In this document: piece after piece, positions 1 to 44,521 of the stretch
How positions within the stretch are numbered: the first letter of the stretch is position 1
Layout of the letters: each line of letters starts with the position of its first letter
From: a phage
Sequence record: PZ386964.1
Strand: one strand, 5' to 3'
DNA: 64,000 bases
The notes under the pieces: model-generated
Seen by the model: only the letters and a program-made list of their open reading frames with translations
Database searches by the model: none
What the model was told of the DNA's origin: nothing
Position numbers and translations under genes: made by a program

Positions 1-515
1 TACATGACACCTTTGCGGTCCTTGATGTCTTCGTAGGCCGCTTGCGCACAGTCGGATAAGCGAAGGCCATAATCATGAGCTACGCCGGAAAGGTAATCGA
101 CTGCGACCATGATGGTGACATCAATATCCATGCTCTGATTTTTAGCAATGGCGTCACCAAGCCGTCCGAGAGTCTTTGCCAAGCGAAGGATAAACGAGTG
201 AGGGTGGGTACCTTTGTCAGCGCAACCGCCGCCGTTGATGTCTTCGATTTTTGCACCATTTTGCGCGGCAAGGATAGTCAATACAACAAGACAATCACCA
301 ATGTCGTCCTTGATTGCGGCCTGCAGGTCACAGATGGCCTGCTCTGTATATCCAATTTCAGGGTCAAAGAACACAAGGTCATGGAGTTGATCAACGTGGT
401 CGGTTAACTCCCCAAACTCGCTGATAAGCTTCGGGTATTGGTCCTTAAGGTCGCAACCTTGGATGATGTTACGGTCAGAAGCCCACTGGCGAATGTTTGC
501 ATAAATCTGTTTCAT
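1..515 (-). CDS. MazG-like nucleoside triphosphate pyrophosphohydrolase (partial; start codon in window, 3' end runs off window start)
   Basis: Open frame on minus strand from ATG at 515-513 to position 1 (translated by hand, no stops): MKQIYANIRQWASDRN...LISEFGELTDHV...KDDIGDCLVVL; EExxE and acidic-helix motifs typical of all-alpha MazG-type NTP-PPases. Not in the ORF track because no in-window stop. ATGA overlap with upstream gene stop. Confidence 0.5.
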   Translation of the reverse strand, partial: MKQIYANIRQWASDRNIIQGCDLKDQYPKLISEFGELTDHVDQLHDLVFFDPEIGYTEQAICDLQAAIKDDIGDCLVVLTILAAQNGAKIEDINGGGCADKGTHPHSFILRLAKTLGRLGDAIAKNQSMDIDVTIMVAVDYLSGVAHDYGLRLSDCAQAAYEDIKDRKGVM

Positions 516-1030
516 TTATTTTCCTTTGATGCATTGAATTGATCGATTTTTATTTTAGCCTGATTATAAGTATCAATCAAGCTATTAACTTTATCTTTTA
601 ATCGGTTTGTTTCTGCGGCGAACTGAACAAGAAATCTGACATCTTCTTCTGATAGTCCACAGTTTCCTTCTGGGATAGAGAGGCGTCCAGTGGTCGCAGA
701 GTCGGGCACACTCCTGAGTAACTCACGGGAGCAGCTGAGTTGCTCGCGCAACTTGATATTCCCAGACTTGTAACGAGCAATAGTGTCATCAGCAACCAGT
801 TGCGCTTCCTGGCGACCTTTCTCATATGCCGATGCCGATTCAACCTGTAAAGATGCAATTTGCTCTTCGAGTGCATTTATCTTGTCCTTACGCTCATTAA
901 GCGATGTCAGATATTGGTTATCCTTGGCCAGTGATGCGTTGGTTTGCTGCAGGTCTTCAACGTATGATCCAGCGGCAAACGCGCCAACAAGGGCCATAAT
1001 CTTCAGGAGTGGTACAATTCTTTCTATCAT
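512..1030 (-). CDS. i-spanin (Rz-like): N-terminal membrane anchor plus periplasmic coiled coil
   Basis: 172 aa; N-terminal hydrophobic segment LLKIMALVGAFAAG followed by long coiled-coil-like region; contains a fully embedded out-of-frame lipoprotein ORF, the classic Rz/Rz1 architecture. Confidence 0.6.
   Translation of the reverse strand: MIERIVPLLKIMALVGAFAAGSYVEDLQQTNASLAKDNQYLTSLNERKDKINALEEQIASLQVESASAYEKGRQEAQLVADDTIARYKSGNIKLREQLSCSRELLRSVPDSATTGRLSIPEGNCGLSEEDVRFLVQFAAETNRLKDKVNSLIDTYNQAKIKIDQFNASKENK
598..825 (-). CDS. o-spanin (Rz1-like outer-membrane lipoprotein), embedded in the i-spanin gene in another frame
   Basis: Internal Met at 825 gives MRKVARKRNWLLMTLLLVTSLGISSC...: positively charged n-region, hydrophobic core and lipobox I-S-S-C; mature part short and Pro/Ser-containing. 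Confidence 0.5.
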   Translation of the reverse strand: MRKVARKRNWLLMTLLLVTSLGISSCASNSAAPVSYSGVCPTLRPLDASLSQKETVDYQKKMSDFLFSSPQKQTD

Positions 1031-1087
1031 GATGCACCAGATAAATAAAAGGCCGCCAATCGGCAGCCTTGTTGATTTGATTGTCGA

Positions 1088-1948
1088 TTAAAACTCTTCT
1101 GCGTCGGTCGGAGTTTCATTAACAGGGCCAGCGGCACCGCTTGCTTCTTCCTGCTTGCTGCGGTCAATGTTAACGTTGCCGCCAACTACATCGTTGTGGA
1201 ATGCTTTGGCGACTTCATACAGACCTTTGTCCTGCACCAGACCTTCCAGCTCAAACTTCAGAACTGACCAGGTGTTGCCATCTTTGGACTGAGACGCAGT
1301 ACCCATGCGAACGATGTTCATGAAGGTCGGCGGAGTTTTCAGGCCCTGCGGAGTCTGAACTTTCTTCTGCTGCAGCGCGGTCATCAGCATGCGAGACGGC
1401 TTGATCATGGAAGAAGTCAGAGACAGCATTGCGCTACCAAATTCACCAGTTTCTTCGTTCAACAGAATCACGAAGTGGTTACGTGTATCTGCGTAGTAAG
1501 GTGATTTCTTCTCGTGCACCTTGCCGTTCTCGTCTGGCACAAACACCTTACCGTTGATTTCAACAGCGCGGCCTGCTGCGACTTCTGCATCAACGTGCTC
1601 TTTGGTGAATTCACCTTTAAAGCCTTTATCGTCGGACTCGCGACCGCCCCAAAGGATGAAGGTGCGTTTGAATGCGCAGGGGATGATCTGCACACCTTTC
1701 TTGCCGTCATACAATTCACCAGTAACGGTGTTGTACAACATGCCAGCTTTTGCGCCAGGAACGTGTTTTGGATCATCTTCGTCGACCATCGGAGACATCT
1801 TTTGCAGCACGACGATAAAAGGAATGGCATAAGCGTCGGCATCGGCACCTTCAAAGCCAGCGCCAAAATCGGTCATGTCGACAAAATCAGCCATAGCGGA
1901 CATCTGGGTGTTTTTCACTGCAACTTCGGTAGTTTCTTTCTTAGACAT
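1088..1948 (-). CDS. hypothetical protein; possible ssDNA-binding protein (acidic C-terminal tail ending ...TDAEEF)
   Basis: 286 aa ORF; acidic C-terminus ending in Phe resembles the tails of T7 gp2.5 and bacterial SSB; sits in replication module. Function is inference. Confidence 0.3.
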   Translation of the reverse strand: MSKKETTEVAVKNTQMSAMADFVDMTDFGAGFEGADADAYAIPFIVVLQKMSPMVDEDDPKHVPGAKAGMLYNTVTGELYDGKKGVQIIPCAFKRTFILWGGRESDDKGFKGEFTKEHVDAEVAAGRAVEINGKVFVPDENGKVHEKKSPYYADTRNHFVILLNEETGEFGSAMLSLTSSMIKPSRMLMTALQQKKVQTPQGLKTPPTFMNIVRMGTASQSKDGNTWSVLKFELEGLVQDKGLYEVAKAFHNDVVGGNVNIDRSKQEEASGAAGPVNETPTDAEEF

Positions 1949-2007
1949 TTGATGTTTTCCTATAGTATCAAGTTTCGTGGCAACCTGATTTCAAGATAAA
2001 GGTTAAA

Positions 2008-2565
2008 TTACTTTTTGCTTTTAGGCAAGGTTATTTTAGCTTCTTTATACTCAAAAACGCTAATATCTTCACTAACTGGATTACCCGCTTCCAGCTGTTC
2101 TTTTACAAATGACTTCAGTGTAGCAGAATGAATGCCTTGTTTCAACGTGGCTTCAACACCATCTTCACGCAGCGCGGCAACAATCTCTTGCGCTTGCTCG
2201 ATTTCTTCGCGACCGAACTCAGCCGTGACGCTGGACTTGATCAAGCCGCCGTAACCGTTGTTGACAAGCCAATCGAATACCTTCAATTCATTTTCTTTCT
2301 TGATTGAAGCATTTACTTTTGACTCGACCTTGATTTTGGTCTTGTCTTCAAGCTTGATTTCGGACACGCCAAGCTCATCCATAACGCCAGGAAGCAGAAC
2401 AGTTTTGATTTCACTGATGCGCTGCTTTTGCATATCAGCTTCATCTTCAAGCTCTGTCAAAGCTTCTTGGCGCTCTGCCAATTCCGATACTAAGCGCGCA
2501 AGACGCTCCTGAATGCTCTCAGGAGCAACCTGCGGCAAATCATCTTCCCAATTAATATTGCTCAT
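2008..2565 (-). CDS. hypothetical protein (coiled-coil N-terminus)
   Basis: 185 aa ORF, ATGA overlap with the upstream gene, same strand as neighbours. Confidence 0.5.
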   Translation of the reverse strand: MSNINWEDDLPQVAPESIQERLARLVSELAERQEALTELEDEADMQKQRISEIKTVLLPGVMDELGVSEIKLEDKTKIKVESKVNASIKKENELKVFDWLVNNGYGGLIKSSVTAEFGREEIEQAQEIVAALREDGVEATLKQGIHSATLKSFVKEQLEAGNPVSEDISVFEYKEAKITLPKSKK

Positions 2566-2825
2566 ATTTTACCTTCTTGCATTAGCCCTTCAACACGGGT
2601 CATTTGATAACGTTCAGGTTTCCAAGCCGCCAAAGCCTTCTCAGCGCCTTTTAAAGTCTTATATGCCTTGATGCCAGGCATAATGACGGTATTCACCCCA
2701 GCACCGTTGCCATAATCAAACTCTTTTACAACGCGGAACATGCCGTCAATTTCTTTGACCAAAAGACGTTTGAACGCGATTGCGCCAGTAGCTTCATTTT
2801 TGTAACGTTCAAGGATGCGTACCAT
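2562..2825 (-). CDS. hypothetical protein
   Basis: 87 aa ORF in operon context. Confidence 0.4.
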   Translation of the reverse strand: MVRILERYKNEATGAIAFKRLLVKEIDGMFRVVKEFDYGNGAGVNTVIMPGIKAYKTLKGAEKALAAWKPERYQMTRVEGLMQEGKI

Positions 2826-2901
2826 TTTGTATTCCTCTATTTCGTTTCGATGAAGTAATTATGACTCATCTTCCGTGACAAGTCAAATTATTTTTTTGAT
2901 A

Positions 2902-4425
2902 TTAATTCATCTTTTTGCCGTCGAGGATGTGATCAGCAAGCATTGACTTCATACTGAGTGAACGCTGAATTTCTTCGTCGATGGTATCAACACCAATAAA
3001 ATCAACATACAACACGCTTGATTTGGTGCCGATGCGGTGATTTCGGTCTTCGGATTGTTTGCGCAGCTCGTTGTCGTAGTTGCAAGAATAATAAATTGCC
3101 AAGTCAGCGGCGGTAAGCGTGATTCCGATGCCTGCCGCGGCTGCGTGACACACCAACACTTGCGTTCCACCGTTCTCGACTGTGTTTTTCTGGAAGTCAT
3201 CAATCAAGAACTCGCGCTGCTCTTTTGATGTTTCACCGTTGTACACACCAGTGACCACGCCTTCAGACTCAAGCCAGTCCTTAATCTGGTTCATCTCTTC
3301 CTTAAAGATGGCCCAAACAATGAATTTGCGCTCTGGGTCGTCTTCCAGCACCCCTTCCACATAATCCTTAAAGGCTGTGAATCGTGGGTTGTCTTCCATG
3401 TAGACCATCTCATCATACACCTTAACAAAGCCTGATGTCACCTGCTTCATCTTGGTGCGAGATGCGATCATCTCAAACTTAACGTTTTCTTCTTCGCCTT
3501 TATACTCCATCAGATAATTGTACTCATTCTTGAGTTCATCATAGACATCGCGCTGCTTAGGCGACAACTCGAAGTCGATAAACTTGTACACCTTCTCTGG
3601 AAGGTCCGGCAGGTATTCCGCTTTTGTCGCGCGGAAATAGTGCGGCTCCATCAGCCGGATAAGCTTGTCAAGGTTTTTGTACATCGGTCGGCCAAACTGG
3701 TCTTTGCGCGGCACTTGCGGAATGCCATAACCGTTGCCGCCGATTTTCTTGAGAATGGCCTGCATCTCTGGGTCGTGCGCTTCAAGCAGCACTGTAAATT
3801 CAGAGTTAAATGCGCGGAACGATTTGGTGCCAAGCAAACCTGCTTCAAGGAAGTGATACTGCATGTAAATATCAGCAGGCGAGCGCGGCAGCGGCGTACC
3901 GGAAAGGATTCGACGGGCCTTTGCCAGCCGTCCCAATTCCACAACCTTGATGGAGCGTTTGGCTGTGTTATTTTTGATACGCGTCGATTCATCAATGATC
4001 ATCAAACAGCGGTACTTCTTCAGTACGGACTCAATGTGTTGATAACCGACTGGCGTGTTCACCGTGTCAATGTTGAATGAGAAGATTCGTGCAGGCACTT
4101 CGCCTTCAGGATAGTGATCAGCAAACATCTTCTCCCAAAGTGCCTTGCCCTTTTTAGTTTTCATTTTGTCATTGCCGCGCCAGTAATGACCAATCCATTT
4201 AATGGAAAGGTGCTCTGGTGCTTCACGACGAATCCAGTTTGAGTGTACACCGTTAGGAGCGATTACAACCATGGCATCAAATGCGCCAGCGGTAAAATGC
4301 TTTTCAAACTCTGCCAAAGCGGTCCAGGTTTTGCCAAGACCCTGCTCCATGAAATAAGCAAAGTATTTTCTGCGGCCTGCTTTATCAAGCGCCAATAATT
4401 GGTGGCGCATTCCTTGTGTTTTCAT
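2902..4425 (-). CDS. SNF2-family (SF2) helicase/ATPase
   Basis: 507 aa; Walker A-like GLGKT, DEST-type motif II (MIIDESTRIKN), C-terminal helicase motifs. Confidence 0.7.
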   Translation of the reverse strand: MKTQGMRHQLLALDKAGRRKYFAYFMEQGLGKTWTALAEFEKHFTAGAFDAMVVIAPNGVHSNWIRREAPEHLSIKWIGHYWRGNDKMKTKKGKALWEKMFADHYPEGEVPARIFSFNIDTVNTPVGYQHIESVLKKYRCLMIIDESTRIKNNTAKRSIKVVELGRLAKARRILSGTPLPRSPADIYMQYHFLEAGLLGTKSFRAFNSEFTVLLEAHDPEMQAILKKIGGNGYGIPQVPRKDQFGRPMYKNLDKLIRLMEPHYFRATKAEYLPDLPEKVYKFIDFELSPKQRDVYDELKNEYNYLMEYKGEEENVKFEMIASRTKMKQVTSGFVKVYDEMVYMEDNPRFTAFKDYVEGVLEDDPERKFIVWAIFKEEMNQIKDWLESEGVVTGVYNGETSKEQREFLIDDFQKNTVENGGTQVLVCHAAAAGIGITLTAADLAIYYSCNYDNELRKQSEDRNHRIGTKSSVLYVDFIGVDTIDEEIQRSLSMKSMLADHILDGKKMN

Positions 4426-27479: not shown

Positions 27480-28015
27480 TGGGCGGCTTTTGGCGTAAAG
27501 CGAAATACTCTAAAGAGTTGCATTACTTCTTAAAAGATGAAGGCATAAGCATTTGCGGCAGGTATAAAAGGGATGGCAATTCAACTTTGCAAATTGACAA
27601 GAAGGCCGATTGGTTGCTCAAGGAAGAGTGCACCGTTTGCCGCGAGCGTTTAGATAGAAAAGTGAAAACGGTTGACTACATAAAGGAGCTTCAAAGCAGG
27701 TGCAAAAGTCCGCAGGAGTTCGCCATTGCTCTTTGGGGTGATCACCCTGAATTAAGAAAGGAATGGTTAAAGACTGATGCGATCAACTCTATTTTTAAAA
27801 TGAAGTATATGACTACCGCCAGATATAAAATGGAAAAATCAGTCATTAAGAAGGTATTATCTTATTGGAGGGATACGGTTGACATTGTAAAAATAAAGAA
27901 ATACCAAAAGGAAGTATTGCTGGAATTGGAAAGGATTGGTTATAAAGTCACCAATAAAATGATAGAGGAAGAGATAAAAAGACGGACTGACAAAGGATTG
28001 ATGCCTAAATTGTAG
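27476..28015 (+). CDS. hypothetical protein (Cys-containing, Lys-rich)
   Basis: 179 aa ORF, last gene of the rightward early block. Confidence 0.45.
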   Translation: MMGGFWRKAKYSKELHYFLKDEGISICGRYKRDGNSTLQIDKKADWLLKEECTVCRERLDRKVKTVDYIKELQSRCKSPQEFAIALWGDHPELRKEWLKTDAINSIFKMKYMTTARYKMEKSVIKKVLSYWRDTVDIVKIKKYQKEVLLELERIGYKVTNKMIEEEIKRRTDKGLMPKL

Positions 28016-28119
28016 CTAATAAACGGACGCTGCTTTACGTGTTTTGAATAATGGGATGTGTACAATGGGTCGCTTTATGCGGCCTTTTGTCGTTTTTGTT
28101 GGAAATTTTGAAGTGAGTG

Positions 28120-28710
28120 GCGTGGACCGTGGTGGTTTGAGGCTTGGTTGATACGTATGGAATTTAGGATATTGTGGATGAAAATAATAAATAAAATGGA
28201 AATTTGTATTTATTTTTGGAGTATGAGCATTTGATTTTGGATTTTAGTGTGCGGATTTTGGAGAGTGAACCGTGGTGTGTGGTGGCGAAAGCCGCGCCGT
28301 GCCTGGATTCTATGGTTGAAGAGTACACTCTTACGGATAGGTTTTTATCCGTATCATGGCGCTAGGGTGCGCCGCGCCTGGATTTGTACACTGAATCTTA
28401 CGGATGATACGGATGATACGCCATTTTTCCTTATTGTAACCAGAATTATTTCAAAAATTAATTAACTCCATTTTGAATTAATTTAAATTAATTTTTTCTA
28501 CATCCTCATACTTATGTTAATTTATATATTTAACGTATTATCCGTAAGATATAAGTAAAAACAAAGACTTGCGGCAATACGGATGATACGTCATGATACG
28601 CTTCAACCAGCCAACTGCGGCTAAGTCATTGATTTGCATAACAAGCGGCGAAAGGGATGGATTTCTTTTATACGTATCAAACAGTACACCACGCACCACG
28701 GTCCGTTATC
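28120..28710. repeat. iteron-rich, AT-rich noncoding region 1
   Basis: Multiple copies of ACGGATGATACG / CGTATCATCCGTA in both orientations (about 28329-28358, 28396-28422, 28545-28557, 28575-28601); GATTTTGGA x3 at about 28241-28260; GGACCGTGGTG at 28124/28267 and its reverse complement at about 28687-28704; AT-rich core 28440-28540. Confidence 0.6.
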
Positions 28711-28765
28711 CATTCAGCACTATGATTTGTGTACGTTTATAGCCATAATGAACATCAATCTGCAC

Positions 28766-28794
28766 TTGAATATAATGTCCATCCATTGTATAAT
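28766..28794 (+). promoter_or_regulatory. sigma70-like promoter
   Basis: TTGAAT -17- TATAAT upstream of the gene starting at 28830. Confidence 0.4.
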
Positions 28795-28829
28795 TCACAC
28801 TATTAATTTGCACTATGGGATTTTGCACT

Positions 28830-29303
28830 ATGAGTCAAGATTATGTAGCGATGCCTGAAGACTTTGAAGACCCGCGATTTGCAGAGCACAATCAGGCTTT
28901 ATTCGATGAGTTCATTGACCTTGTTATTCAGGGCCATGACATGCGCGCAGCTTTTGCACTAGTATTTGGAATGGAAGTTGCAACGGATAACTACACTGGC
29001 CAGCGAATCCTTTGCGCGCAACGCAATCCATACTACAAGATGCGCTTCAAAAAGCGTATGGAAGAGATGCCACTCAAGGATTTGTGGAGCGTAAAAGGTG
29101 CAATTCACAATTTGGTCAAGCTTGTGCGTGATCCAGAAGTCGCGGCATCAGCCAAGCTTAATGCTATTCGTGAACTGAATATCATCTACGGCATCACGAT
29201 GATTGATGAAAACGGCAATAGTAAAATGGGCCGTTCTATGGACGATTTCTACAAGGATTTTGGAGAGGCGGCCAAAGAAGGTGAGCAATTCTCCCGCCAC
29301 TAG
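28830..29303 (+). CDS. hypothetical helix-rich protein; candidate DNA-binding protein (small-terminase-like or regulator)
   Basis: 157 aa from ATG 28830; start codon lies inside a copy of the TTTGCACTATG motif; helix-rich sequence FIDLVIQGHDMRAAFALVFG, KLNAIRELNIIYGI. Function is inference. Confidence 0.45.
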   Translation: MSQDYVAMPEDFEDPRFAEHNQALFDEFIDLVIQGHDMRAAFALVFGMEVATDNYTGQRILCAQRNPYYKMRFKKRMEEMPLKDLWSVKGAIHNLVKLVRDPEVAASAKLNAIRELNIIYGITMIDENGNSKMGRSMDDFYKDFGEAAKEGEQFSRH

Positions 29304-29417
29304 CCAATTTGCACTATAAAACGGCCCTAGAACACATTTTCTCCACTTCTAGGGCCATCGGTAATACGACGGGGAAGGTTACAACCATAAACGCGTTAGA
29401 AAGTGTATTATTATAAG

Positions 29418-29681
29418 TCATCTTTTAGTCACTTTCCGTAACAATTTACGACCTTCAACCGTCCAATCGAACGACTCCACCAGCAGATTTGCACCATAAC
29501 CCAAGACGATGCGCCCTTTCTCGTTATCGACCCGCCAACAAGTCTCGAATAGCATTCGATTTGCACTATTAACTATTGCCGCAACGCGCGTTGGGTAAGC
29601 GCAATTTGCACTATGGTCATAAAGGGATAAGGTGCGACCACTTCCGATGGACAACGTAGCAATGAGAATAAGCGTATTCAT
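29418..29681 (-). CDS. hypothetical protein
   Basis: 87 aa ORF; contains three antisense copies of the 11-mer motif, so coding status is uncertain. Confidence 0.3.
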   Translation of the reverse strand: MNTLILIATLSIGSGRTLSLYDHSANCAYPTRVAAIVNSANRMLFETCWRVDNEKGRIVLGYGANLLVESFDWTVEGRKLLRKVTKR

Positions 29682-29731
29682 AAGCCACCAATTTGCACTA
29701 TGAAAAGCGACCCCGAAGGGCCGCCATTCAA

Positions 29732-30358
29732 TTAGATGATTTGGAATGTGTAGGATTTATTACCGAACTCGAAGTTCAAGCGCCCAGCTTCCTTAAGCTT
29801 CATGCGGAAGCGAATATGCTTGCTATCCGGTAGGCCCAGCGCGGCGAACGCTACGCGGACCGATTTGAACTCTCCTACACCCTCGACCATAACGCCGTTA
29901 CGGGTGAGACGCTTTTGCGCCACTTCCTTATTGTCCCAACTTTTTGCAATGCCTTCGCTATTCGAACGGCGATGGGAAGGAGTTCCATTTTGCACTACGC
30001 AATTTGCACTATCGTTTAAACCGCTCTTAACGAAGGCTTCATACTCTTCGTCGGTCATCGCGTCGAGTTCTTCCTGAGTCGGCTCGGCCTTTTTAACTAC
30101 CGCACGCGCCTTATGCGTTTTTACATCGCTGGACACTTCCTCGCGCGGCTTCGCGTCGGGGATGGGCGATTCGTTGGACGGCTCATCGAGCGCGTTTAAG
30201 GACTCGATTAACGCGATTACGCGAGTCTCGGCGGTCCGGCGGTCCGCAAACTTCTTAATCGGCTTCGAACCGGAATTTGCATTATAAAATGCAACGAGGT
30301 CGGCGGTCTTAGTTGCGATAACGTCGCCGCTAGTCGAGAAACGATTTAAGCTAACCAT
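29732..30358 (-). CDS. hypothetical protein
   Basis: 208 aa ORF with protein-like composition; contains three antisense copies of the motif. Confidence 0.4.
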   Translation of the reverse strand: MVSLNRFSTSGDVIATKTADLVAFYNANSGSKPIKKFADRRTAETRVIALIESLNALDEPSNESPIPDAKPREEVSSDVKTHKARAVVKKAEPTQEELDAMTDEEYEAFVKSGLNDSANCVVQNGTPSHRRSNSEGIAKSWDNKEVAQKRLTRNGVMVEGVGEFKSVRVAFAALGLPDSKHIRFRMKLKEAGRLNFEFGNKSYTFQII

Positions 30359-30438
30359 AATAAACTCCTATTTGTTAGGGCGCTAGGCGCGAAAGAATTT
30401 TATTAAAGCGCCGCGCACGACGCTCTAAAAATCCTCTC

Positions 30439-30723
30439 TTACGCTTCGACGAGGGAGAAGGTCTCAAATTCTTCTTCGCCCATAACGAGTAAGATATTAC
30501 CGATTTCGACCGCTTCGAAGAAGTATCCGTTAACGTTTACTTCGAAGGCTTCGCGGTCCGATTCCGGTAGCGCCGCGTAAAGTTTAAAAGCCTCGGCGAC
30601 CGTTACCCCACCCGCCTCGATAGTTTGGTCTACGTTCGCGGCGTAGACTTCGGATAAATTTTGTTTAACGCCGTAGTTCTCGACGATAGCGTTACGAATA
30701 GAAGAAACGTTAAGAATAGCCAT
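30439..30723 (-). CDS. small acidic hypothetical protein (cassette A; paralog of 31358-31648)
   Basis: 94 aa; N-terminus AILNVSSIRNAIVE..VYAANVDQTIE aligns with ITLAAIRNARAE..VYLFNVDATIEE of cassette B; homologous promoter, 5'-UTR hairpin and RBS. Confidence 0.5.
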   Translation of the reverse strand: MAILNVSSIRNAIVENYGVKQNLSEVYAANVDQTIEAGGVTVAEAFKLYAALPESDREAFEVNVNGYFFEAVEIGNILLVMGEEEFETFSLVEA

Positions 30724-30740
30724 TTTAAACTCCTAGTTGG

Positions 30741-30770
30741 GAGAGGCGTTAACGACCTATTCGTTAACTC
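30741..30770 (-). promoter_or_regulatory. 5'-UTR stem-loop of cassette A (GUUAACGA-AUAGG-UCGUUAAC)
   Basis: Minus-strand reading gagTTAACGAataggTCGTTAAcgcctc; homologous to the cassette B hairpin with two compensatory base-pair changes; followed by CCAACTAGGAG RBS. Confidence 0.55.
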
Positions 30771-30791
30771 ATCCCGTCCCGATATGAGTAC

Positions 30792-30819
30792 ATTATAATA
30801 TAGTGTAGAAAAAAGTAAA
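30792..30819 (-). promoter_or_regulatory. sigma70-like promoter of cassette A (minus strand)
   Basis: Minus-strand TTTACT -16- TATAAT, preceded by CGAAAAAGTGCTTTACT shared with cassette B. Confidence 0.45.
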
Positions 30820-30862
30820 GCACTTTTTCGATAAAAATGAGATAAATTATTTTATCTTTTTC

Positions 30863-30890
30863 TTTACTTCTTCGTACACTCGCATATACT
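30863..30890 (+). promoter_or_regulatory. sigma70-like promoter of middle gene (cassette C), divergent from cassette A promoter
   Basis: TTTACT -16- TATACT with shared TTTACTTCTTCGTACACT and TTTATATCGAGA elements. Confidence 0.45.
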
Positions 30891-30946
30891 TGTTTATATC
30901 GAGACGGGCGATGTCCCTTCCTTCTACTAGCATCGGGAGCTTTATT

Positions 30947-31249
30947 ATGACTACTTTAATCTCTTCCATCCTTACTTACGACGAAGACCGCTTAACCGTT
31001 CGCTCTCTTATCGCCGCCGTTAACGCGGAACTAGAATCTAGCGCCATTAAGGTCCGCGCGGTCGCCTTCATCGGCCTTTCCTTCGACGATATGAAGTATG
31101 CCGAACGTAGCGCTATCCGCTTCGCGAAGACCGACGACGAAGCCGTTACCCTTATCGAGACGGTTACGCCGCGCGGCGAAGCGTTAATTATCGTCGAGTA
31201 TATCGACGTAGAAGGCGATAAGGCTTATAAATATTTTATCGCAGAATAA
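30947..31249 (+). CDS. small acidic hypothetical protein (cassette C)
   Basis: Start at MTTLISSILTYDEDRL... with RBS GGGAG; the ORF-track N-terminal extension overlaps the promoter. Confidence 0.45.
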   Translation: MTTLISSILTYDEDRLTVRSLIAAVNAELESSAIKVRAVAFIGLSFDDMKYAERSAIRFAKTDDEAVTLIETVTPRGEALIIVEYIDVEGDKAYKYFIAE

Positions 31250-31260
31250 CGAAAAAGTGC

Positions 31261-31289
31261 TTTACTTCTTCGTACACTAAGACTATAAT
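31261..31289 (+). promoter_or_regulatory. sigma70-like promoter of cassette B
   Basis: TTTACT -17- TATAAT; upstream CGAAAAAGTGCTTTACT is the reverse complement of 30812-30830. Confidence 0.45.
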
Positions 31290-31310
31290 GTTTTATATCG
31301 AGAGGGGGAT

Positions 31311-31336
31311 GAGGTAGCGAATAGGTCGCTACCCTC
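31311..31336 (+). promoter_or_regulatory. 5'-UTR stem-loop of cassette B (GGUAGCGA-AUAGG-UCGCUACC)
   Basis: gagGTAGCGAataggTCGCTACcctc; same loop AUAGG as cassette A, stem differs at two positions with compensatory partner changes; followed by CCAACTAGGAG RBS and ATG 31358. Confidence 0.55.
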
Positions 31337-31357
31337 CCGACCAACTAGGAGATTATT

Positions 31358-31648
31358 ATGATTACTTTAGCCGCTATCCGTAACGCTCGCGCCGAAACTT
31401 CCGAAAACTCTAACGTATTTGGCGAAAAACTTAAAAACGTTTATCTCTTTAACGTAGATGCGACTATCGAGGAGCTTCATAGTCCTATCGATTTTAGCGA
31501 ATTTACGGAACTCGAAGAGGAAGATATTTCTACCTTCCGCGTTACTATCGAAGGCAAGGTTTATTTTGCTACGGAGTTCGGCGGCGAATATCTCGCGGTA
31601 TCCGAAGGCGAAGGCCGTTACTCTTTCTTTAAAATCGTCTCCTTATAA
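31358..31648 (+). CDS. small acidic hypothetical protein (cassette B; paralog of 30439-30723)
   Basis: 96 aa; paralogous to cassette A protein; followed by a strong terminator. Confidence 0.5.
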   Translation: MITLAAIRNARAETSENSNVFGEKLKNVYLFNVDATIEELHSPIDFSEFTELEEEDISTFRVTIEGKVYFATEFGGEYLAVSEGEGRYSFFKIVSL

Positions 31649-31668
31649 TACCCTTCCGTTATTAATAG

Positions 31669-31693
31669 GCCGCGCTTAGTCGCGGCTTTTCTT
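31669..31693 (+). terminator. rho-independent terminator
   Basis: GCCGCG-CTTAGT-CGCGGC hairpin followed by TTTTCTT. Confidence 0.65.
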
Positions 31694-31813
31694 CGTCCCT
31701 ATCTCGATGCGCTTCTCCGCGAAAACTCCTTTATCCTTCCCTTCTTCGTCGCATAATCTTCATCGAGATGCGCCTTAGTTCGCATAACAGGTATTACGTT
31801 AAATGGAGAACAT

Positions 31814-32078
31814 CGCGTAAGTCCTTGTTTTATATAGACACCTATATCGGACCGTTAGGGCGGGTCGCGTAAGTCGTTGTTTTATAAAGGCGCAAAACTT
31901 TCCCTTCGTTCCGAACTAAAACGAGAAATATGCCGACCCTTCGCCGGAAAATAGTACGCATGCGAAATTACATGCATCTAGAATAATCCCCACCGATATT
32001 ATCCTACACGCAATCATTCGCTTTCGAATCATTATGCTTCATATTATTATGCGTCGAATCATTCGCTTTCGAATTGTA
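31814..32078. repeat. noncoding repeat block: 23-bp direct repeats and two copies of an imperfect palindrome
   Basis: CGCGTAAGTC(C/G)TTGTTTTATA at about 31814 and 31866; AATCATTCGCTTTCGAAT at about 32012 and 32057; further GAATTTGCAGTACACT copies at about 32164 and 32261. Confidence 0.5.
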
Positions 32079-32347
32079 ACGCTGGAAACTGTAACGTCGA
32101 TTGATTATTGCGTTCGTGTGGTTTTTATGGCATGGGTCTTTTGGTGCGTTTTGCTACTTGATGGAATTTGCAGTACACTAATCAAAATACGACACATTTG
32201 GTCCACTAACTTTTCAAAGAAAAAGTCCTAGACAGTACCGTACTATTTTGTACCCACAGGAAATTTGCAGTACACTCCTGTGCGGCAGGCAAAATAAAGG
32301 GCCGCACCAAGCGACCCACGATTCACGGTTAAATCAACAAGCACCCA

Positions 32348-32728
32348 CTATTCACTCTTATGGGCATCACCAAAGCCATCCGCAATCTGGCTGATCAGCG
32401 ATTCAATGGACACAGTTTTACCAATTGATCGAGCGGTAATAGCAAGCATATTATCAATCAAACCGCGATTGACTTCACATGTTCCAGGCTTTGATTCATC
32501 TCCAGGACAACCAAAAAGCTGGTCGCGCAAACTTTCGAGGGAACGCTCAATATTTTCCAGCTTCTCTTCTAAATCGGATTGGCGACGTAAAACCCATGTT
32601 AAGTCGCGGTTGCCGACTTCCAATCCATTATAATCGCAAGATGGAACGTCAATTTTGATACTGGAACCAAAAGCAGTACCGCTGCCTTTAGTATATGTGT
32701 GGCTAATAGAATCATTTTTATTTGACAT
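32348..32728 (-). CDS. hypothetical protein (last gene of tail-fibre operon)
   Basis: Start at internal MSNKNDSISHTY... (RBS AAAGGT); the longer ORF-track start would include a small hairpin. Confidence 0.4.
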   Translation of the reverse strand: MSNKNDSISHTYTKGSGTAFGSSIKIDVPSCDYNGLEVGNRDLTWVLRRQSDLEEKLENIERSLESLRDQLFGCPGDESKPGTCEVNRGLIDNMLAITARSIGKTVSIESLISQIADGFGDAHKSE

Positions 32729-32822
32729 ATCATTACCTTTAATATTTGGGTGATTAACAATAACTATAATAAAGCCGCATAGCGCGGCATTCAAATCGAT
32801 TTATTAATCGTGACGATTGGAT

Positions 32823-32918
32823 TTACTTATCCAACCAATCAATAAGCGCAATCATGGCTACAACAAATACTGCACTTATTGCTAATATGATCAAAAACAT
32901 CACGAAATCAACGTTCAT
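32823..32918 (-). CDS. small single-pass hydrophobic peptide (31 aa)
   Basis: MNVDFVMFLIILAISAVFVVAMIALIDWLDK; its ATG overlaps the stop of the upstream gene in another frame. Confidence 0.3.
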   Translation of the reverse strand: MNVDFVMFLIILAISAVFVVAMIALIDWLDK

Positions 32919-33144
32919 CAATCGATACCAATTGTGCAGGGTCGCCGGATACCGTTGCGCCGATGATACCCATCTGAGAGAAAAATTCTGAATAAACTTC
33001 CTTCCAGTACTTGCGCGCAGCTTTCTGGGCTTGACCTTTTCGCTTGTAGCTTTTACCTTGAAAGATGAAGCGGTCTTTTGGAGCGTAATACTCCACCACA
33101 CCTTCCAGCCATTGTAAGAATGCTACTGATTCATTTTGATTCAT
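32908..33144 (-). CDS. hypothetical protein
   Basis: 78 aa ORF with protein-like composition (MNQNESVAFLQWLEGVVEYYAPKDRF...). Confidence 0.4.
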   Translation of the reverse strand: MNQNESVAFLQWLEGVVEYYAPKDRFIFQGKSYKRKGQAQKAARKYWKEVYSEFFSQMGIIGATVSGDPAQLVSIDER

Positions 33145-37627: not shown

Positions 37628-39088
37628 ATGAATAAAATATTAACACATAATTGGAAATTCATGTACCAGTTGAATCCTGCTTTAAAAGAAGTCTGGAAGA
37701 CAAAAGCGCGATACAAAGTAATATACGGCGGTCGTGCATCTTCCAAATCGCACGATGCCGCTGGTTTTGCTATTTATTTGGCGGCAAACTTCAAATTAAA
37801 ATTCCTTTGCGTTCGACAATTCCAGAACAAGATTTCTGAATCTGTATATACTCTATTAAAAGATAAAATAGAGATTTCTGATTTTAAAGATGAGTTCAAT
37901 TTATTAAAGAACTCTATCGAGCATAAAAGAACTAAATCTGAATTTCTATTTTACGGTATCGCACGTAACGTTGATGAAATTAAATCAACGGAAGGCGTTG
38001 ATGTTCTTTGGCTGGAAGAAGCGCACGCACTTACTGAAGAACAGTGGGACATTATTGAGCCGACAATCCGTAAAGAAGGGTCAGAAATATGGATCATCTT
38101 TAACCCTGATGAAGAGGCCGATTTCGTCTACCAAAACTTTGTTATGCGACCGCCGAAGAATGCCATAGTTAAAAAGATAAACTGGCAAGACAACCCATTC
38201 TTGTCGCAAACAATGCTGGATGTTATCGCAGGCATGTACGAGCGCGACCCGAAAAAGGCAGAGCACGTTTATGGCGGCGTGCCGAAGACTGGTGGCGATA
38301 AATCTGTAATCAACCGTGCATTCGTTAAGGCCGCGCTAAATCTCCACAAACATCCTACGCTGGGGTGGAGTTTGTCAGGGTCCAACCGTATAGGCTTTGA
38401 CGTAGCGGACGATGGCGACGACCTTAACGCCACTGCATTCGTCACAGGAAACGTATTGCGCGGCATCAAGACGTGGGAAGGTCTGGAAGATGAATTGTTG
38501 AAATCGGCAAGCGGAGTTTGGAAAGATGCGCTTACATTTGGCGCTTCTATAACTTATGACGCCATCGGTGTCGGCGCTTTTGCTGGTTCAAAATTTGATG
38601 AACTGAACGAGTATGCAATACATGAAAATCCATCATTTCCAAGAATCGAATTTAATGCGTTCAATGCGCAAGGGTCTGTTGATGATCCTGATGACGTTTT
38701 TCTTGAATTACCACACGTTGAAATACTCAATAAAGACCATTTCGCAAACATAAAAGCGCAAAAGTGGACTGAAATTGCAGAGAGATTCAGAAAGACATAC
38801 GAATATGCAACTGGGCAAGCCGTATATCCGACTGATGAATTGATTTCAATCGACACCGATGGCATACCGGAACTTGGGATTCCAGCTTGGACTACTGAAG
38901 AGATTGAGACGTTTCTTTTTGAGATGTCAGCGCCGCGCAAAGACACTTCTGTTCTTGGCAAGTTCAAAGTTGAATCCAAAAAGGATATGGCAAAGCGTGG
39001 AGTCAAATCACCTAACAAAGCGGACGCAGCAATCATGGCATTGATGAAACCAATCGTTGCAGCATCCGGCTTCTTCTCTAACCTTTAA
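37628..39088 (+). CDS. terL: terminase large subunit
   Basis: 486 aa; Walker A VIYGGRASSKSH, Walker B-like DVLWLEEAH, C-terminal nuclease-like region with acidic residues. No obvious RBS before ATG 37628, so start is uncertain. Confidence 0.7.
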   Translation: MNKILTHNWKFMYQLNPALKEVWKTKARYKVIYGGRASSKSHDAAGFAIYLAANFKLKFLCVRQFQNKISESVYTLLKDKIEISDFKDEFNLLKNSIEHKRTKSEFLFYGIARNVDEIKSTEGVDVLWLEEAHALTEEQWDIIEPTIRKEGSEIWIIFNPDEEADFVYQNFVMRPPKNAIVKKINWQDNPFLSQTMLDVIAGMYERDPKKAEHVYGGVPKTGGDKSVINRAFVKAALNLHKHPTLGWSLSGSNRIGFDVADDGDDLNATAFVTGNVLRGIKTWEGLEDELLKSASGVWKDALTFGASITYDAIGVGAFAGSKFDELNEYAIHENPSFPRIEFNAFNAQGSVDDPDDVFLELPHVEILNKDHFANIKAQKWTEIAERFRKTYEYATGQAVYPTDELISIDTDGIPELGIPAWTTEEIETFLFEMSAPRKDTSVLGKFKVESKKDMAKRGVKSPNKADAAIMALMKPIVAASGFFSNL

Positions 39089-44211: not shown

Positions 44212-44253
44212 ATCGCCTGGCAATGGATTGCCGCAGGATTTTACGCGTATAAT

Positions 44254-44521
44254 GACGTATCATCCGTATCAAGTAAGTAGTTGTTTTCGAAAGAATCTTA
44301 CGGGTGATACGGATGATACGCGTTGCCGCGATACTTTATAGGAATTCAAATAAATTAATTTAAAATTATATATCTAATTTAATTTTATTTTTTTATAAAC
44401 TCTTATATATGAAAAGTATCCGTATCATCCGTATCATCCGTAGCACACCAGTGATAGCGCGGCTTATACACCGATACGGATAAAAATACGCCTCATTTTA
44501 TCCGTATCATCCGTATCACAC
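44254..44521. repeat. iteron-rich, AT-rich noncoding region 2 (same 9-bp unit as region 1)
   Basis: CCGTATCAT units: 44254-44273, 44297-44322 (inverted), tandem copies 44416-44444 and 44496-44521, degenerate copy 44471-44492; AT-rich core 44340-44410. Confidence 0.6.

What the first reader, a model, noticed from the sequence alone, without database searches (positions are those of the whole stretch)
31694..32347. 650-bp noncoding stretch with direct repeats and paired imperfect palindromes
No convincing ORF on either strand, yet the region holds two 23-bp direct repeats (CGCGTAAGTC(C/G)TTGTTTTATA, about 31814 and 31866), two copies of the imperfect palindrome AATCATTCGCTTTCGAAT (about 32012 and 32057), and two GAATTTGCAGTACACT copies (about 32164 and 32261) sharing TTTGCA/GTACACT with the neighbouring motifs and promoters. 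This is consistent with operator sites for a dimeric regulator and/or one or more small noncoding RNAs, between the terminator at 31669-31693 and the end of the tail-fibre operon.
Basis: seen in the sequence. Interest (0 to 1): 0.5.

Follow-up and report, generated by a model that had tools for sequence, protein, structure and literature searches.

The report
Phage terminal-repeat boundary and cutting signal
This noncoding stretch straddles the right edge of the phage's 3.7-kb direct terminal repeat, the point where packaged DNA ends, and it carries a sequence next to that cut that is shared by three phage genera, so it is most likely the DNA signal that tells the packaging machinery where to cut, not a source of small RNAs.

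Summary
The repeats are real and non-random. The window is a Wifcevirus, an E. coli myovirus related to WFC, WFH and Mansfield. Four independent GenBank records end at that base. The cut sits in a 24-nt block that is invariant in 14 Wifcevirus genomes. The same element lies at the same distance from the experimentally called DTR end of Pantoea phage Kyle. From the alignment I predicted the terminus of Serratia phage MyoSmar, and its PhageTerm-defined end matched the predicted column. A profile built without any Wifcevirus sequence finds only this site in the 64-kb window (E=1.2e-7). The "palindromes" are better read as AAT(G/C)(A/G)TT heptamers phased every ~15 bp upstream of the cut in all three genomes examined. 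There is no Rfam hit, no unusual RNA folding, no conserved ORF and no DnaA box. Best reading (0.65): a cis-acting terminus-forming/packaging signal, analogous in logic to T7 PacB/PacC. The operator idea survives in part, because GTACACT also occurs in early-promoter spacers. This is a new member of a known kind, of moderate interest.

The parts
28470..32141 (+). Direct terminal repeat (3,672 bp), present once in this collapsed assembly. It holds TerS and small early-type genes.
   Evidence: The boundaries are identical in sequence to the DTR ends of Mansfield (PhageTerm, 1-3673), WFH, SP13 and Ro157lw. A terminal repeat of about 3.7 kb is published for WFC and WFH and one of 3,673 bp for Mansfield.
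28815..29303 (+). Small terminase (TerS) gene, 345 nt inside the left genome end.
   Evidence: E=6e-34 to PDB 7uxe, 'Small terminase' of phage E217.
31667..31693 (+). Intrinsic terminator that closes the rightward early genes; left border of the noncoding block.
   Evidence: Only 1 of 34 columns varies across 14 genomes. The homologous terminator is present in Kyle and PA1.
31813..31889 (+). Two 25-nt direct repeats (31813-31837 and 31865-31889, spacing 52). Genus-specific; role unknown.
   Evidence: This is the best-conserved 100-nt bin (98.5%), with 2 and 1 variable columns per copy. No counterpart in Kyle, PA1, TropicalSun or MTx.
32012..32063 (.). AATCATT heptamers at 32012, 32027 and 32057 (spacings 15 and 30).
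   Evidence: 3 of the 22 AAT[GC][AG]TT-type heptamers in 64 kb fall here. Kyle has 5 and PA1 has 9 in the equivalent place, and all spacings fit only a 15-nt period. The heptamers at 32012 and 32057 are invariant in 14 genomes while their flanks vary.
32072..32096 (+). AAYTGTAACG x2 at 32072 and 32087, continuing the 15-nt register.
   Evidence: family D13. Invariant within the genus.
32112..32141 (+). Conserved block just inside the DTR end (TTCGTGTGGTTTTTATGGCATGGGTCTTT).
   Evidence: Alignable with Kyle and PA1. It is part of the leave-one-out nhmmer hit at 32112-32193, E=1.2e-7.
32141..32142 (.). Right physical end of virion DNA (DTR right boundary), ...GGGTCTTT | TGGTGCG...
   Evidence: Same base in Mansfield, WFH, SP13 and Ro157lw. 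Same alignment column as Kyle's DTR end and as MyoSmar's PhageTerm end, which I predicted before checking. The 24 nt GCATGGGTCTTTTGGTGCGTTTTG are invariant in 14 genomes.
32165..32188 (+). Box 1: AATTTGCAGTACACTAATCAAAAT, starting 23 nt outside the cut, with GTACACTAA starting 31 nt after it.
   Evidence: Kyle has AATTTCACAGTACACTAATCAGAAT, also 23 nt outside its cut. PA1 and TropicalSun/MyoSmar have GTACACTAA at the matching place, 31-32 nt after the cut.
32262..32276 (+). Box 2: second AATTTGCAGTACACT, 97 nt after box 1.
   Evidence: A second GTACACT box downstream of box 1 is present in Kyle, PA1, TropicalSun and MTx. It is the next-best profile hit in the window and in PA1.
32299..32317 (-). 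Intrinsic terminator of the leftward operon of small genes and tail fibres; right border of the noncoding block.
   Evidence: The stem is conserved and the loop is variable in relatives.
28469..28470 (.). Left physical end of virion DNA, ...AATTAACTCC | ATTTTGAATT..., in an AT-rich core.
   Evidence: Kyle's left end lies in a similar context...ATAAATTC | ACTT.

Best explanation
The stretch is the junction between the phage's direct terminal repeat and its unique DNA. It carries the cis-acting signal that fixes the right end of the packaged genome.

Shown: the virion DNA ends at 32141|32142. The cut lies in an invariant block. Box 1, a GTACACTAA-containing element, starts at a fixed distance outside the cut in three genera. 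An array of AAT(G/C)(A/G)TT heptamers phased about 15 bp apart lies 20-230 bp inside the cut. Convergent terminators keep read-through transcription out of the region.

Inferred: the terminase (TerS 28815-29303, TerL 37628-39088), possibly with a further DNA-binding factor, assembles on these elements in replicated concatemeric or circular DNA and cuts at the fixed position.

More tentative (about 0.4): this site is where packaging starts, and DNA is reeled in leftwards. The heptamer-bearing end would then enter the capsid first. The left end, made at the less conserved site 28469|28470, would be packaged last and injected first, as in T7/T3. As in T7, the single DTR copy between genome units must be duplicated by replication for both neighbouring genomes to mature.

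The 25-nt direct repeats at 31813-31889 are genus-specific and not explained by this model.
For: 1. Position. Four records with independently determined ends (Mansfield by PhageTerm; WFH, SP13 and Ro157lw deposited with both DTR copies) place the right DTR end at the base equivalent to 32141|32142.

2. Cross-genus conservation with fixed geometry. Pantoea phage Kyle (TerS 43% identical, DTR 3,603 bp) ends at the same alignment column and has AATTTCACAGTACACTAATCAGAAT starting 23 nt outside the cut, exactly as in the window.

3. Prediction test. From the alignment I predicted a Myosmarvirus end at ...GGGCAAGGGC|TGGTGCG. MyoSmar's PhageTerm-opened record begins with the reverse complement of GGGCAAGGGC.

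4. Specificity. A profile built only from Kyle, PA1 and TropicalSun finds one significant site in the 64-kb window, 32112-32193 (E=1.2e-7). The next-best hit is box 2.

5. Within-genus constraint. The noncoding block is 95-98.5% identical across 13 relatives, against 74-93% for adjacent coding DNA. The 24 nt around the cut and two of the three heptamers are invariant.

6. Heptamer array. Density peaks just upstream of the cut in the window, Kyle and PA1, and only a 15-nt period fits. For PA1, 45 of 200,000 random placements fit any period from 8 to 20.

7. Direction. Relatives carry 4-9 Chi sites in the left ~2 kb of the DTR, all oriented to act on RecBCD entering from the left end. This suggests the left end enters first and is therefore packaged last, on the textbook rule that the last DNA packaged is the first ejected.

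8. Precedent. T7 Pac consists of PacB, bound by TerS, and PacC, cut by TerL, at the concatemer junction.
Against: - No experiment links these motifs to terminase.
- TerS of the distant relative E217 showed no appreciable DNA binding in vitro.
- Two records disagree on the end. WFC's lies 81 nt further out, although its local sequence is nearly identical. MTx's PhageTerm ends lie 14 nt inside the aligned column at both ends.
- The window's own termini are inferred from sequence identity with relatives, not measured.
- GTACACT is not exclusive to the right boundary. It also occurs in two early-promoter spacers and near the left end, so it may be a regulator site.
- The heptamer phasing has no statistical power in the window alone: 75% of random placements fit some period.
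- Pbunavirus E217 and Salmonella phage PCSE1 have homologous TerS genes but show no such element.
- A different oriented array, T(T/C)(T/C)GCACTA in 10-12 copies around and after the TerS gene, is an equally good candidate for the TerS recognition site.
- The window has only one Chi site in its DTR, so the direction argument rests mainly on relatives.
Confidence: 0.65

Rival explanations
1. The GTACACT boxes, and perhaps the heptamers, are operators for a phage transcription regulator, for example one that shuts off early promoters. Their closeness to the DTR end would then be incidental or secondary.
For: GTACACT sits in the spacer of both duplicated early promoters, TTTACT-N5-GTACACT-N4/5-TATA(C/A)T, at 30874 and 31272. 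It is retained in the homologous PA1 promoter although the neighbouring spacer bases differ. Six of the nine copies in the window are on the + strand in or around the DTR (only 2 of 100 shuffles reach 9 copies). The ECML-117 subgroup encodes an extra annotated 'transcriptional regulator' directly upstream of the block.
Against: The boundary boxes lack any -10 or -35 partner and lie between convergent terminators with no gene to control. The conservation covers far more than the heptamer: 82 nt in the leave-one-out hit, with a fixed 31-32 nt from the cut to GTACACTAA in three genera. A pure operator would not need that. The window lacks the extra regulator gene yet keeps every motif.
Confidence: 0.15
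2. It is a T5-like injection-control region. DNA entry pauses at this repeat-rich noncoding block at the inner edge of the terminal repeat until DTR-encoded early proteins have acted.
For: The anatomy parallels T5 Repeat Region 3. That region is 1.2 kb, untranslated, full of direct repeats and palindromes, lies mostly inside the LTR, overruns 270 bp into unique DNA, and is better conserved than the LTR ORFs. Here about 450 bp lie inside the DTR and about 200 bp outside. The DTR carries small genes with sigma70-like promoters. Chi orientation suggests left-end-first entry.
Against: There are no DnaA boxes in the DTR: 3 in the whole window against 7.7 expected, none nearby. No homologues of T5 pre-early proteins were detected, because the DTR proteins match only two PHROG families of unknown function and no Pfam family. 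Two-step injection has not been reported for this group. The tight coupling of the conserved core to the cut position is not required by this model.
Confidence: 0.07
3. It is a replication origin, with the repeats acting as iterons.
For: Direct repeats, a phased array and a transcription-free setting are origin-like features.
Against: No DnaA boxes. GC content is ordinary (0.38-0.47), with no AT-rich unwinding element inside the block. A much better origin-like structure, an AT-rich core between inverted TACGGATGATACG iterons, exists at the left terminus and at 44.25-44.52 kb. The fixed relation to the cut is not explained.
Confidence: 0.05
4. One or more small noncoding RNAs are made from the block.
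For: Four weak sigma70-like matches lie on the - strand at 31998-32133, and two terminator-like hairpins lie on the - strand at 31933-31977.
Against: No Rfam match at gathering score or at E<=1. Folding z-scores are 0.55 and 0.02. The promoter-like hits are by-products of the TCGAA/AATCATT repeats. The 31956-31977 hairpin loses 2 of its 8 pairs in 7 of 13 relatives. Across genera, sequence and spacing to a DNA cut are conserved, not helices.
Confidence: 0.03
5. Outside the immediate cut site, the block is non-functional filler or the decayed remains of duplicated early-gene cassettes.
For: The DTR contains duplicated promoter-gene cassettes. Short words such as TGTTTTATAT are shared between the 25-nt repeats and the early promoters. 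The DTR as a whole is well conserved, so within-genus identity alone is weak evidence of function.
Against: No significant similarity between the block and the rest of the DTR (all E>=0.47). Neutral DNA would be expected to diverge faster than the neighbouring genes, yet it is at least as conserved. The heptamer cores are invariant while their flanks vary.
Confidence: 0.05

Closest known systems
T7/T3 packaging signal at the concatemer junction (PacB recognised by TerS gp18, PacC cut by TerL gp19)
   Same: An exact direct terminal repeat. Sequence-specific cuts at its boundaries. Recognition DNA next to the cut. Short repeat arrays adjoining the repeat (T7 SRL/SRR; this point is from my own knowledge of Dunn and Studier 1983, not checked here). 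The single inter-genome repeat copy has to be duplicated.
   Different: There is no sequence similarity. The repeat is 3.7 kb and carries genes, including TerS, against 160 bp of noncoding DNA in T7. These are myoviruses with an Sf6/E217-type TerL, not T7-type. There is no phage RNA polymerase, so the T7 requirement for transcription or pausing at the junction cannot apply.
Phage T5 Repeat Region 3 / injection stop signal at the inner end of the long terminal repeat
   Same: A long untranslated block at the inner edge of a gene-bearing terminal repeat that overruns into unique DNA, is dense in direct repeats and palindromes, and is better conserved than the neighbouring ORFs.
   Different: There are no paired DnaA boxes, no detectable A1/A2-like genes, no sequence similarity, and no known two-step injection. 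In T5 the proposed role is stopping injection, not defining the cut.
Lambda cos (cosQ - cosN - cosB)
   Same: A composite site with conserved elements on both sides of the cut at fixed distances, and a multi-site protein-binding array on the side that stays with the packaged end. This is established textbook knowledge and was not tested here.
   Different: Lambda makes 12-nt cohesive ends and has no terminal repeat. The two ends here are 3.7 kb apart and specified by different sequences; the profile of the right end finds nothing at the left end.
Terminal-repeat boundary marks of SPO1-like and Kayvirus phages (short inverted repeats bracketing the long terminal repeat; from memory, Lobocka et al. 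2012)
   Same: Conserved short sequence marks at the boundaries of a multi-kb terminal repeat, thought to guide site-specific nicking.
   Different: Here the marks are same-strand GTACACT boxes, not inverted repeats, and only the right boundary has a conserved geometry across genera.

Membership tests
DTR-boundary terminus/packaging signal (functional class; T7 Pac as type) | Lies at an experimentally determined end of virion DNA | tested here: met
   The ends of four Wifcevirus records map to 32141|32142. The window's own ends are inferred from identical sequence.
DTR-boundary terminus/packaging signal (functional class; T7 Pac as type) | Sequence around the cut is conserved among relatives that cut at the homologous place | tested here: met
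   A 24-nt invariant block within the genus. Kyle and MyoSmar ends fall at the same alignment column. The leave-one-out profile gives E=1.2e-7. WFC (+81 nt) and MTx (-14 nt) are discordant.
DTR-boundary terminus/packaging signal (functional class; T7 Pac as type) | Bound by the small terminase and cut by the large terminase; necessary and sufficient for packaging | not testable with these tools
   Needs EMSA or footprinting, in vitro cleavage, and plasmid-transduction assays. E217 TerS did not bind DNA in vitro.
T7 Pac (homology) | Sequence similarity to T7/T3 PacB/PacC; T7-type terminase | tested here: not met
   TerL matches E217 and Sf6 TerL. TerS matches E217 TerS. The noncoding block has no homologue outside Wifcevirus by blastn.
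T5 injection stop signal / Repeat Region 3 | Untranslated repeat-rich block at the inner end of the terminal repeat, overrunning into unique DNA, better conserved than the ORFs | tested here: met
   compared.
T5 injection stop signal / Repeat Region 3 | Eight DnaA or DnaA* boxes arranged in pairs | tested here: not met
   TTWTNCACA is absent from 28000-33000. There are 3 in 64 kb against 7.7 expected.
T5 injection stop signal / Repeat Region 3 | A1/A2-type pre-early genes in the repeat; two-step DNA transfer | tested here: inconclusive
   The DTR proteins match only PHROG families of unknown function and no Pfam family. Two-step transfer itself cannot be tested here.
Structured small RNA | Match to a known RNA family, or folding stability or covariation above background | tested here: not met
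   The internal hairpin is not conserved.
Iteron-type replication origin | Iterons plus an AT-rich unwinding element, with or without DnaA boxes | tested here: not met
   Repeats are present, but there is no AT-rich element (GC 0.38-0.47) and no DnaA box.
Operator sites of a transcription regulator | Same motif overlapping promoters elsewhere in the genome | tested here: met
   GTACACT is in the spacers of the early promoters at 30874 and 31272 and in the PA1 homologue.
Operator sites of a transcription regulator | Motif positioned to control a promoter at this locus | tested here: not met
   No credible -35/-10 pair accompanies box 1 or box 2, and the locus lies between convergent terminators.

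The most novel reading that the evidence does not exclude
A single GTACACT-binding phage factor ties gene expression to genome maturation. It would occupy the early-promoter spacers, shutting them off, and the paired boxes just outside the DTR, marking where terminase cuts. Meanwhile the 15-bp-phased heptamer array would wrap the decameric TerS ring at the end that enters the capsid first. This would be a composite, three-part end-recognition system shared by Wifcevirus, Kylevirus and Myosmarvirus and unlike the T7, T5, lambda or P22 paradigms.
Probability: 0.15. Interest if true: 0.6.

Novelty: new member of a known kind. Interest (0 to 1): 0.4.

Why it matters
How phages with long, exact, gene-bearing terminal repeats define their ends is understood in detail only for T7/T3, whose repeats are short. 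For the PB1-related myoviruses the terminase structures are solved (E217), but no recognition DNA is known, and E217 TerS did not bind DNA in vitro. A cut-adjacent element that is conserved with base-pair geometry across three genera gives a concrete substrate for binding and cleavage assays. It also gives a rule for opening and annotating these genomes correctly; many records are deposited as arbitrarily opened circles. Finally, it marks a region that must be kept intact, and present once, when these phages are rebooted or engineered from assembled fragments, as has already been done for vB_Eco4M-7.

Tried and rejected
- **Known RNA families, tRNAs and RNA folding:** nothing.
- **Small ORFs as genes, including the two that Mansfield annotates:** no protein-level constraint.
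- **Motif 3 as a genome-wide promoter motif:** the 15-mer is unique to this spot.
- **More distant DNA homologues:** blastn finds only the 29 Wifcevirus records. IMG/VR scans with the 21-mer repeat and with the neighbouring 127-aa protein return only the same genus.
- **14-mer CAGTACACTAATCA in IMG/VR:** swamped by chance hits. After context filtering, only Wifcevirus and Kyle remain.
- **Composite pattern GGTGCGNTTT-N17-22-GTACACTAA in IMG/VR:** finds Wifcevirus and MyoSmar, plus two chance hits inside unrelated coding DNA.
- **Inverted repeat 32133-32148 / 32303-32318 (cut site against terminator):** the similarity lies in the terminator loop, which varies among relatives, so I treat it as chance.
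- **Shared core between the left and right cut sites:** none.
- **DnaA boxes:** none.
- **Noncoding block as decayed early-promoter cassettes:** no significant similarity.
- **25-nt direct repeats in other genera:** absent.
- **The element in E217 (Pbunavirus) and Salmonella phage PCSE1:** not found.
- **The E217 terminase paper (PMC10026623):** not available.

Full report
**Observation.** The three repeat pairs are present as described.
- A 25-nt direct repeat lies at 31813 and 31865 (92% identical).
- The exact 18-mer AATCATTCGCTTTCGAAT lies at 32012 and 32057, inside a 43-nt repeat with 45-nt spacing.
- The exact 15-mer AATTTGCAGTACACT lies at 32165 and 32262.

None of them occurs elsewhere in the window, even with three mismatches. 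Shuffles never give two copies of the first two motifs. The block lies between a + strand terminator (31667-31688) and a - strand terminator (32317-32299). It has no ORF longer than 65 aa. Across 13 relatives the small ORFs change almost only by nonsynonymous substitutions, and some lose start codons or gain stops or frameshifts.

The window is a Wifcevirus, up to 95.8% identical to the best-matching phage record; 29 records match. Mansfield's record is opened at a PhageTerm-predicted direct terminal repeat of 3,673 bp. WFC and WFH were published with terminal repeats of about 3.7 kb. Mapping the record ends onto the window shows two things:
- Mansfield, WFH, SP13 and Ro157lw all end the repeat at ...GGCATGGGTCTTT|T(T)GGTGCG, which is window 32141|32142.
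- All of them start it at ...AATTAACTCC|ATTTT, which is window 28469|28470.

So about 450 bp of the finding is the last part of the DTR and about 200 bp is the first unique DNA. The physical right end of the virion chromosome lies in the middle of the finding. WFC's record alone ends 81 nt further on.

**Conservation within the genus.** The block is found in all 29 records at 89.5-97.6% identity. In 100-nt bins across 13 relatives it is 95-98.5% identical, while the coding DNA on either side drops to 74-93%. Other parts of the DTR are similarly well conserved, so this is suggestive only. Base by base:
- The 24 nt around the cut are invariant.
- The AATCATT heptamers at 32012 and 32057 are invariant.
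- Box 1 (GTACACTAATCAAAAT) is almost invariant.

**Conservation across genera.** TerS (28815-29303, E=6e-34 to the E217 small terminase structure 7uxe) has homologues in 359 phage records.
- *Pantoea phage Kyle* (TerS 43% identical) is deposited with both copies of a 3,603-bp DTR in the same gene order. Its right end reads ...GTGCCCTT|GACCGCGATTTAGTACCTGGTCC-AATTTCACAGTACACTAATCAGAAT. The window reads ...GGGTCTTT|TGGTGCGTTTTGCTACTTGATGG-AATTTGCAGTACACTAATCAAAAT. The spacer is 23 nt in both, and they share the 14-mer CAGTACACTAATCA.
- *PA1*, a second Kylevirus, aligns through the same region.
- *Erwinia phage TropicalSun* (Myosmarvirus) has GGTGCGATTT...GTACACTAA with the same 30-nt distance from GGTGCG to the box, in a 480-bp intergenic gap about 3.2 kb downstream of the start of its TerS gene.

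From the alignment I predicted the Myosmarvirus end to be ...GGGCAAGGGC|TGGTGCG. The MyoSmar record was opened at a PhageTerm DTR of 3,559 bp and is in the reverse orientation. It begins GCCCTTGCCC, the reverse complement of GGGCAAGGGC, so its terminus falls on the predicted column. MTx's PhageTerm ends lie 14 nt inside that column at both ends.

A leave-one-out profile built only from Kyle, PA1 and TropicalSun finds one significant site in the whole window, 32112-32193 (E=1.2e-7), followed by box 2 (E=0.42). The reverse tests were mixed. TropicalSun was recovered as top hit at the right place but only at E=0.44. Kyle was not recovered from window plus TropicalSun, whereas PA1 was (E=4.7e-7).

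**The 'palindromes' reinterpreted.** Upstream of the cut, all three genomes examined carry AAT(G/C)(A/G)TT heptamers, and the density peaks there:
- window: 3 of 22 copies in 64 kb
- Kyle: 5 of 8 copies in 9 kb
- PA1: 9 of 15 copies in 11.5 kb

Spacings are 15, 30 or 45 nt (occasionally 31 or 46), and 15 is the only period between 8 and 20 that fits. This is significant in PA1 (45 of 200,000 random placements), marginal in Kyle (6%), and carries no power in the window alone. The window's TCGAATCATTCG units are members of this family, and the AAYTGTAACG pair at 32072 and 32087 continues the register.

**What it is not.**
- *Not a structured RNA:* no Rfam match at gathering score or at E<=1, and no excess RNA folding (z = 0.55 and 0.02).
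- *Not DnaA-box DNA:* no DnaA boxes.
- *Not decayed promoter cassettes:* no significant similarity to the early-promoter cassettes.
- *The 25-nt direct repeats:* they have no counterpart in other genera and remain unexplained.

**Mechanism.** The evidence best fits a cis-acting terminus-forming signal: an invariant cut site, a conserved box at a fixed distance outside it, and a phased binding array inside it, all shielded from transcription by convergent terminators. By analogy with T7 Pac (PacB bound by TerS, PacC cut by TerL), I infer that the terminase acts here (TerL 37628-39088, E=6e-84 to PDB 8dkr 'Large terminase protein' and 3e-64 to 4ife/4idh 'Gene 2 protein', which I take to be Sf6 TerL).

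A tentative argument gives the direction. In Kyle, PA1, TropicalSun, MTx and MyoSmar the left ~2 kb of the DTR holds 4-9 Chi sites, all oriented to act on RecBCD entering from the left end. That suggests the left end enters first. It would then be packaged last, which makes the conserved right boundary the likely start site. The window itself has only one exact Chi in its DTR.

**Caveats and the main rival.** GTACACT also lies in the spacers of the two early promoters (30874, 31272), in the PA1 homologue, and near the left end (28323 and 28386 in the window; inside the DTR in Kyle and Myosmarvirus). So the box may be bound by a regulator rather than, or as well as, the terminase. E217 TerS did not bind DNA in vitro. 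An oriented T(T/C)(T/C)GCACTA array around the TerS gene is an alternative TerS recognition site.

T5's Repeat Region 3 is the closest anatomical parallel. However, its defining DnaA boxes are absent, and its A1/A2-type genes were not detected.

**Verdict.** The feature is the DTR/unique junction with a conserved end-defining element. The DTR itself is published, but I found no description of the cis-element. I class it as a new member of a known kind, of moderate interest.

Noticed in passing
window 28806-30285 (+ strand); also Kyle L027 579-1483 and PA1 L145 5436-6651: An oriented array of T(T/C)(T/C)GCACTA (ATTTGCACTAT in the window). There are 9-11 copies in the window, all on the + strand and all within the left 1.8 kb of the DTR, starting just before the TerS start codon and running antisense through the - strand genes. 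None of 100 shuffles reaches 9 copies. Kyle has 10 and PA1 has 12, also all on the + strand. The function is unknown. It could be the TerS recognition array. It shares AATTTGCA with box 1 and box 2.
   Followed up: partly
Kyle L027 255-1972; PA1 L145 5361-6933; TropicalSun L147 5987-6492; MTx L150 179-1276; window 29477: Chi sites (GCTGGTGG, present as CCACCAGC on the + strand) are packed into the left ~2 kb of the DTR in relatives (9, 7, 5 and 4 copies, plus 4 in MyoSmar). All are oriented to be recognised by RecBCD entering from the left genome end. The window keeps only one exact Chi there, plus near-matches such as CCACTAGC at 29297.
   Followed up: partly
window 28343-28601 and 44245-44518: TACGGATGATACG occurs 12 times (<=2 mismatches; no shuffle reaches 12), in two clusters. 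Four copies flank the AT-rich left DTR cut. Seven more, in both orientations, flank another AT-rich core in the intergenic region upstream of the head-protease gene (44628). The two regions share HSPs of up to 29 nt at 97% identity. This looks like an iteron/origin or a regulated-promoter structure. The copy near 44.3 kb is not a known terminus.
   Followed up: partly
window 28323, 28386, 30874, 31272, 32173, 32270: Six + strand GTACACT boxes lie in and around the DTR: two outside the left cut, two in the spacers of the duplicated early promoters (exact 19-mer CTTTACTTCTTCGTACACT), and two outside the right cut. The promoter-spacer box is conserved in Pantoea phage PA1.
   Followed up: yes
window 32318-32325, compared with relatives (alignment): A 7-nt unit ACCCACG next to the - strand terminator varies in copy number: 1 in the window, 2 in Bas99, F13 and SP13, and 6 in Mansfield. 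It behaves like a slippage-prone microsatellite at the end of the leftward operon.
   Followed up: no
between window 31648 and 31667 (insertion in relatives L010-L012 and L014): The ECML-117, F13, SP13 and Ro157lw subgroup carries an extra 69-aa gene, annotated 'transcriptional regulator' in some records, between the 96-aa gene and the terminator. The window lacks it. The 3' end of the 96-aa gene is also a divergent allele in several relatives (74-87% identity).
   Followed up: no
window 30439-30723 (-), 30947-31249 (+), 31358-31648 (+), with 30721-30833 against 31247-31360: The DTR carries duplicated small-gene cassettes (promoter, leader, gene) in inverted orientation, with inverted repeats of 33-55 nt at 78-88% complementarity. 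None of the proteins has a Pfam or PHROG match.
   Followed up: no
GenBank records MK373777 (WFC) and MK618717 (MTx): The deposited DTR ends disagree with the consensus column. WFC's right end is 81 nt further out, despite nearly identical local sequence. MTx is 14 nt inside at both ends. These are probably end-calling or library artefacts, but real heterogeneity is not excluded.
   Followed up: partly
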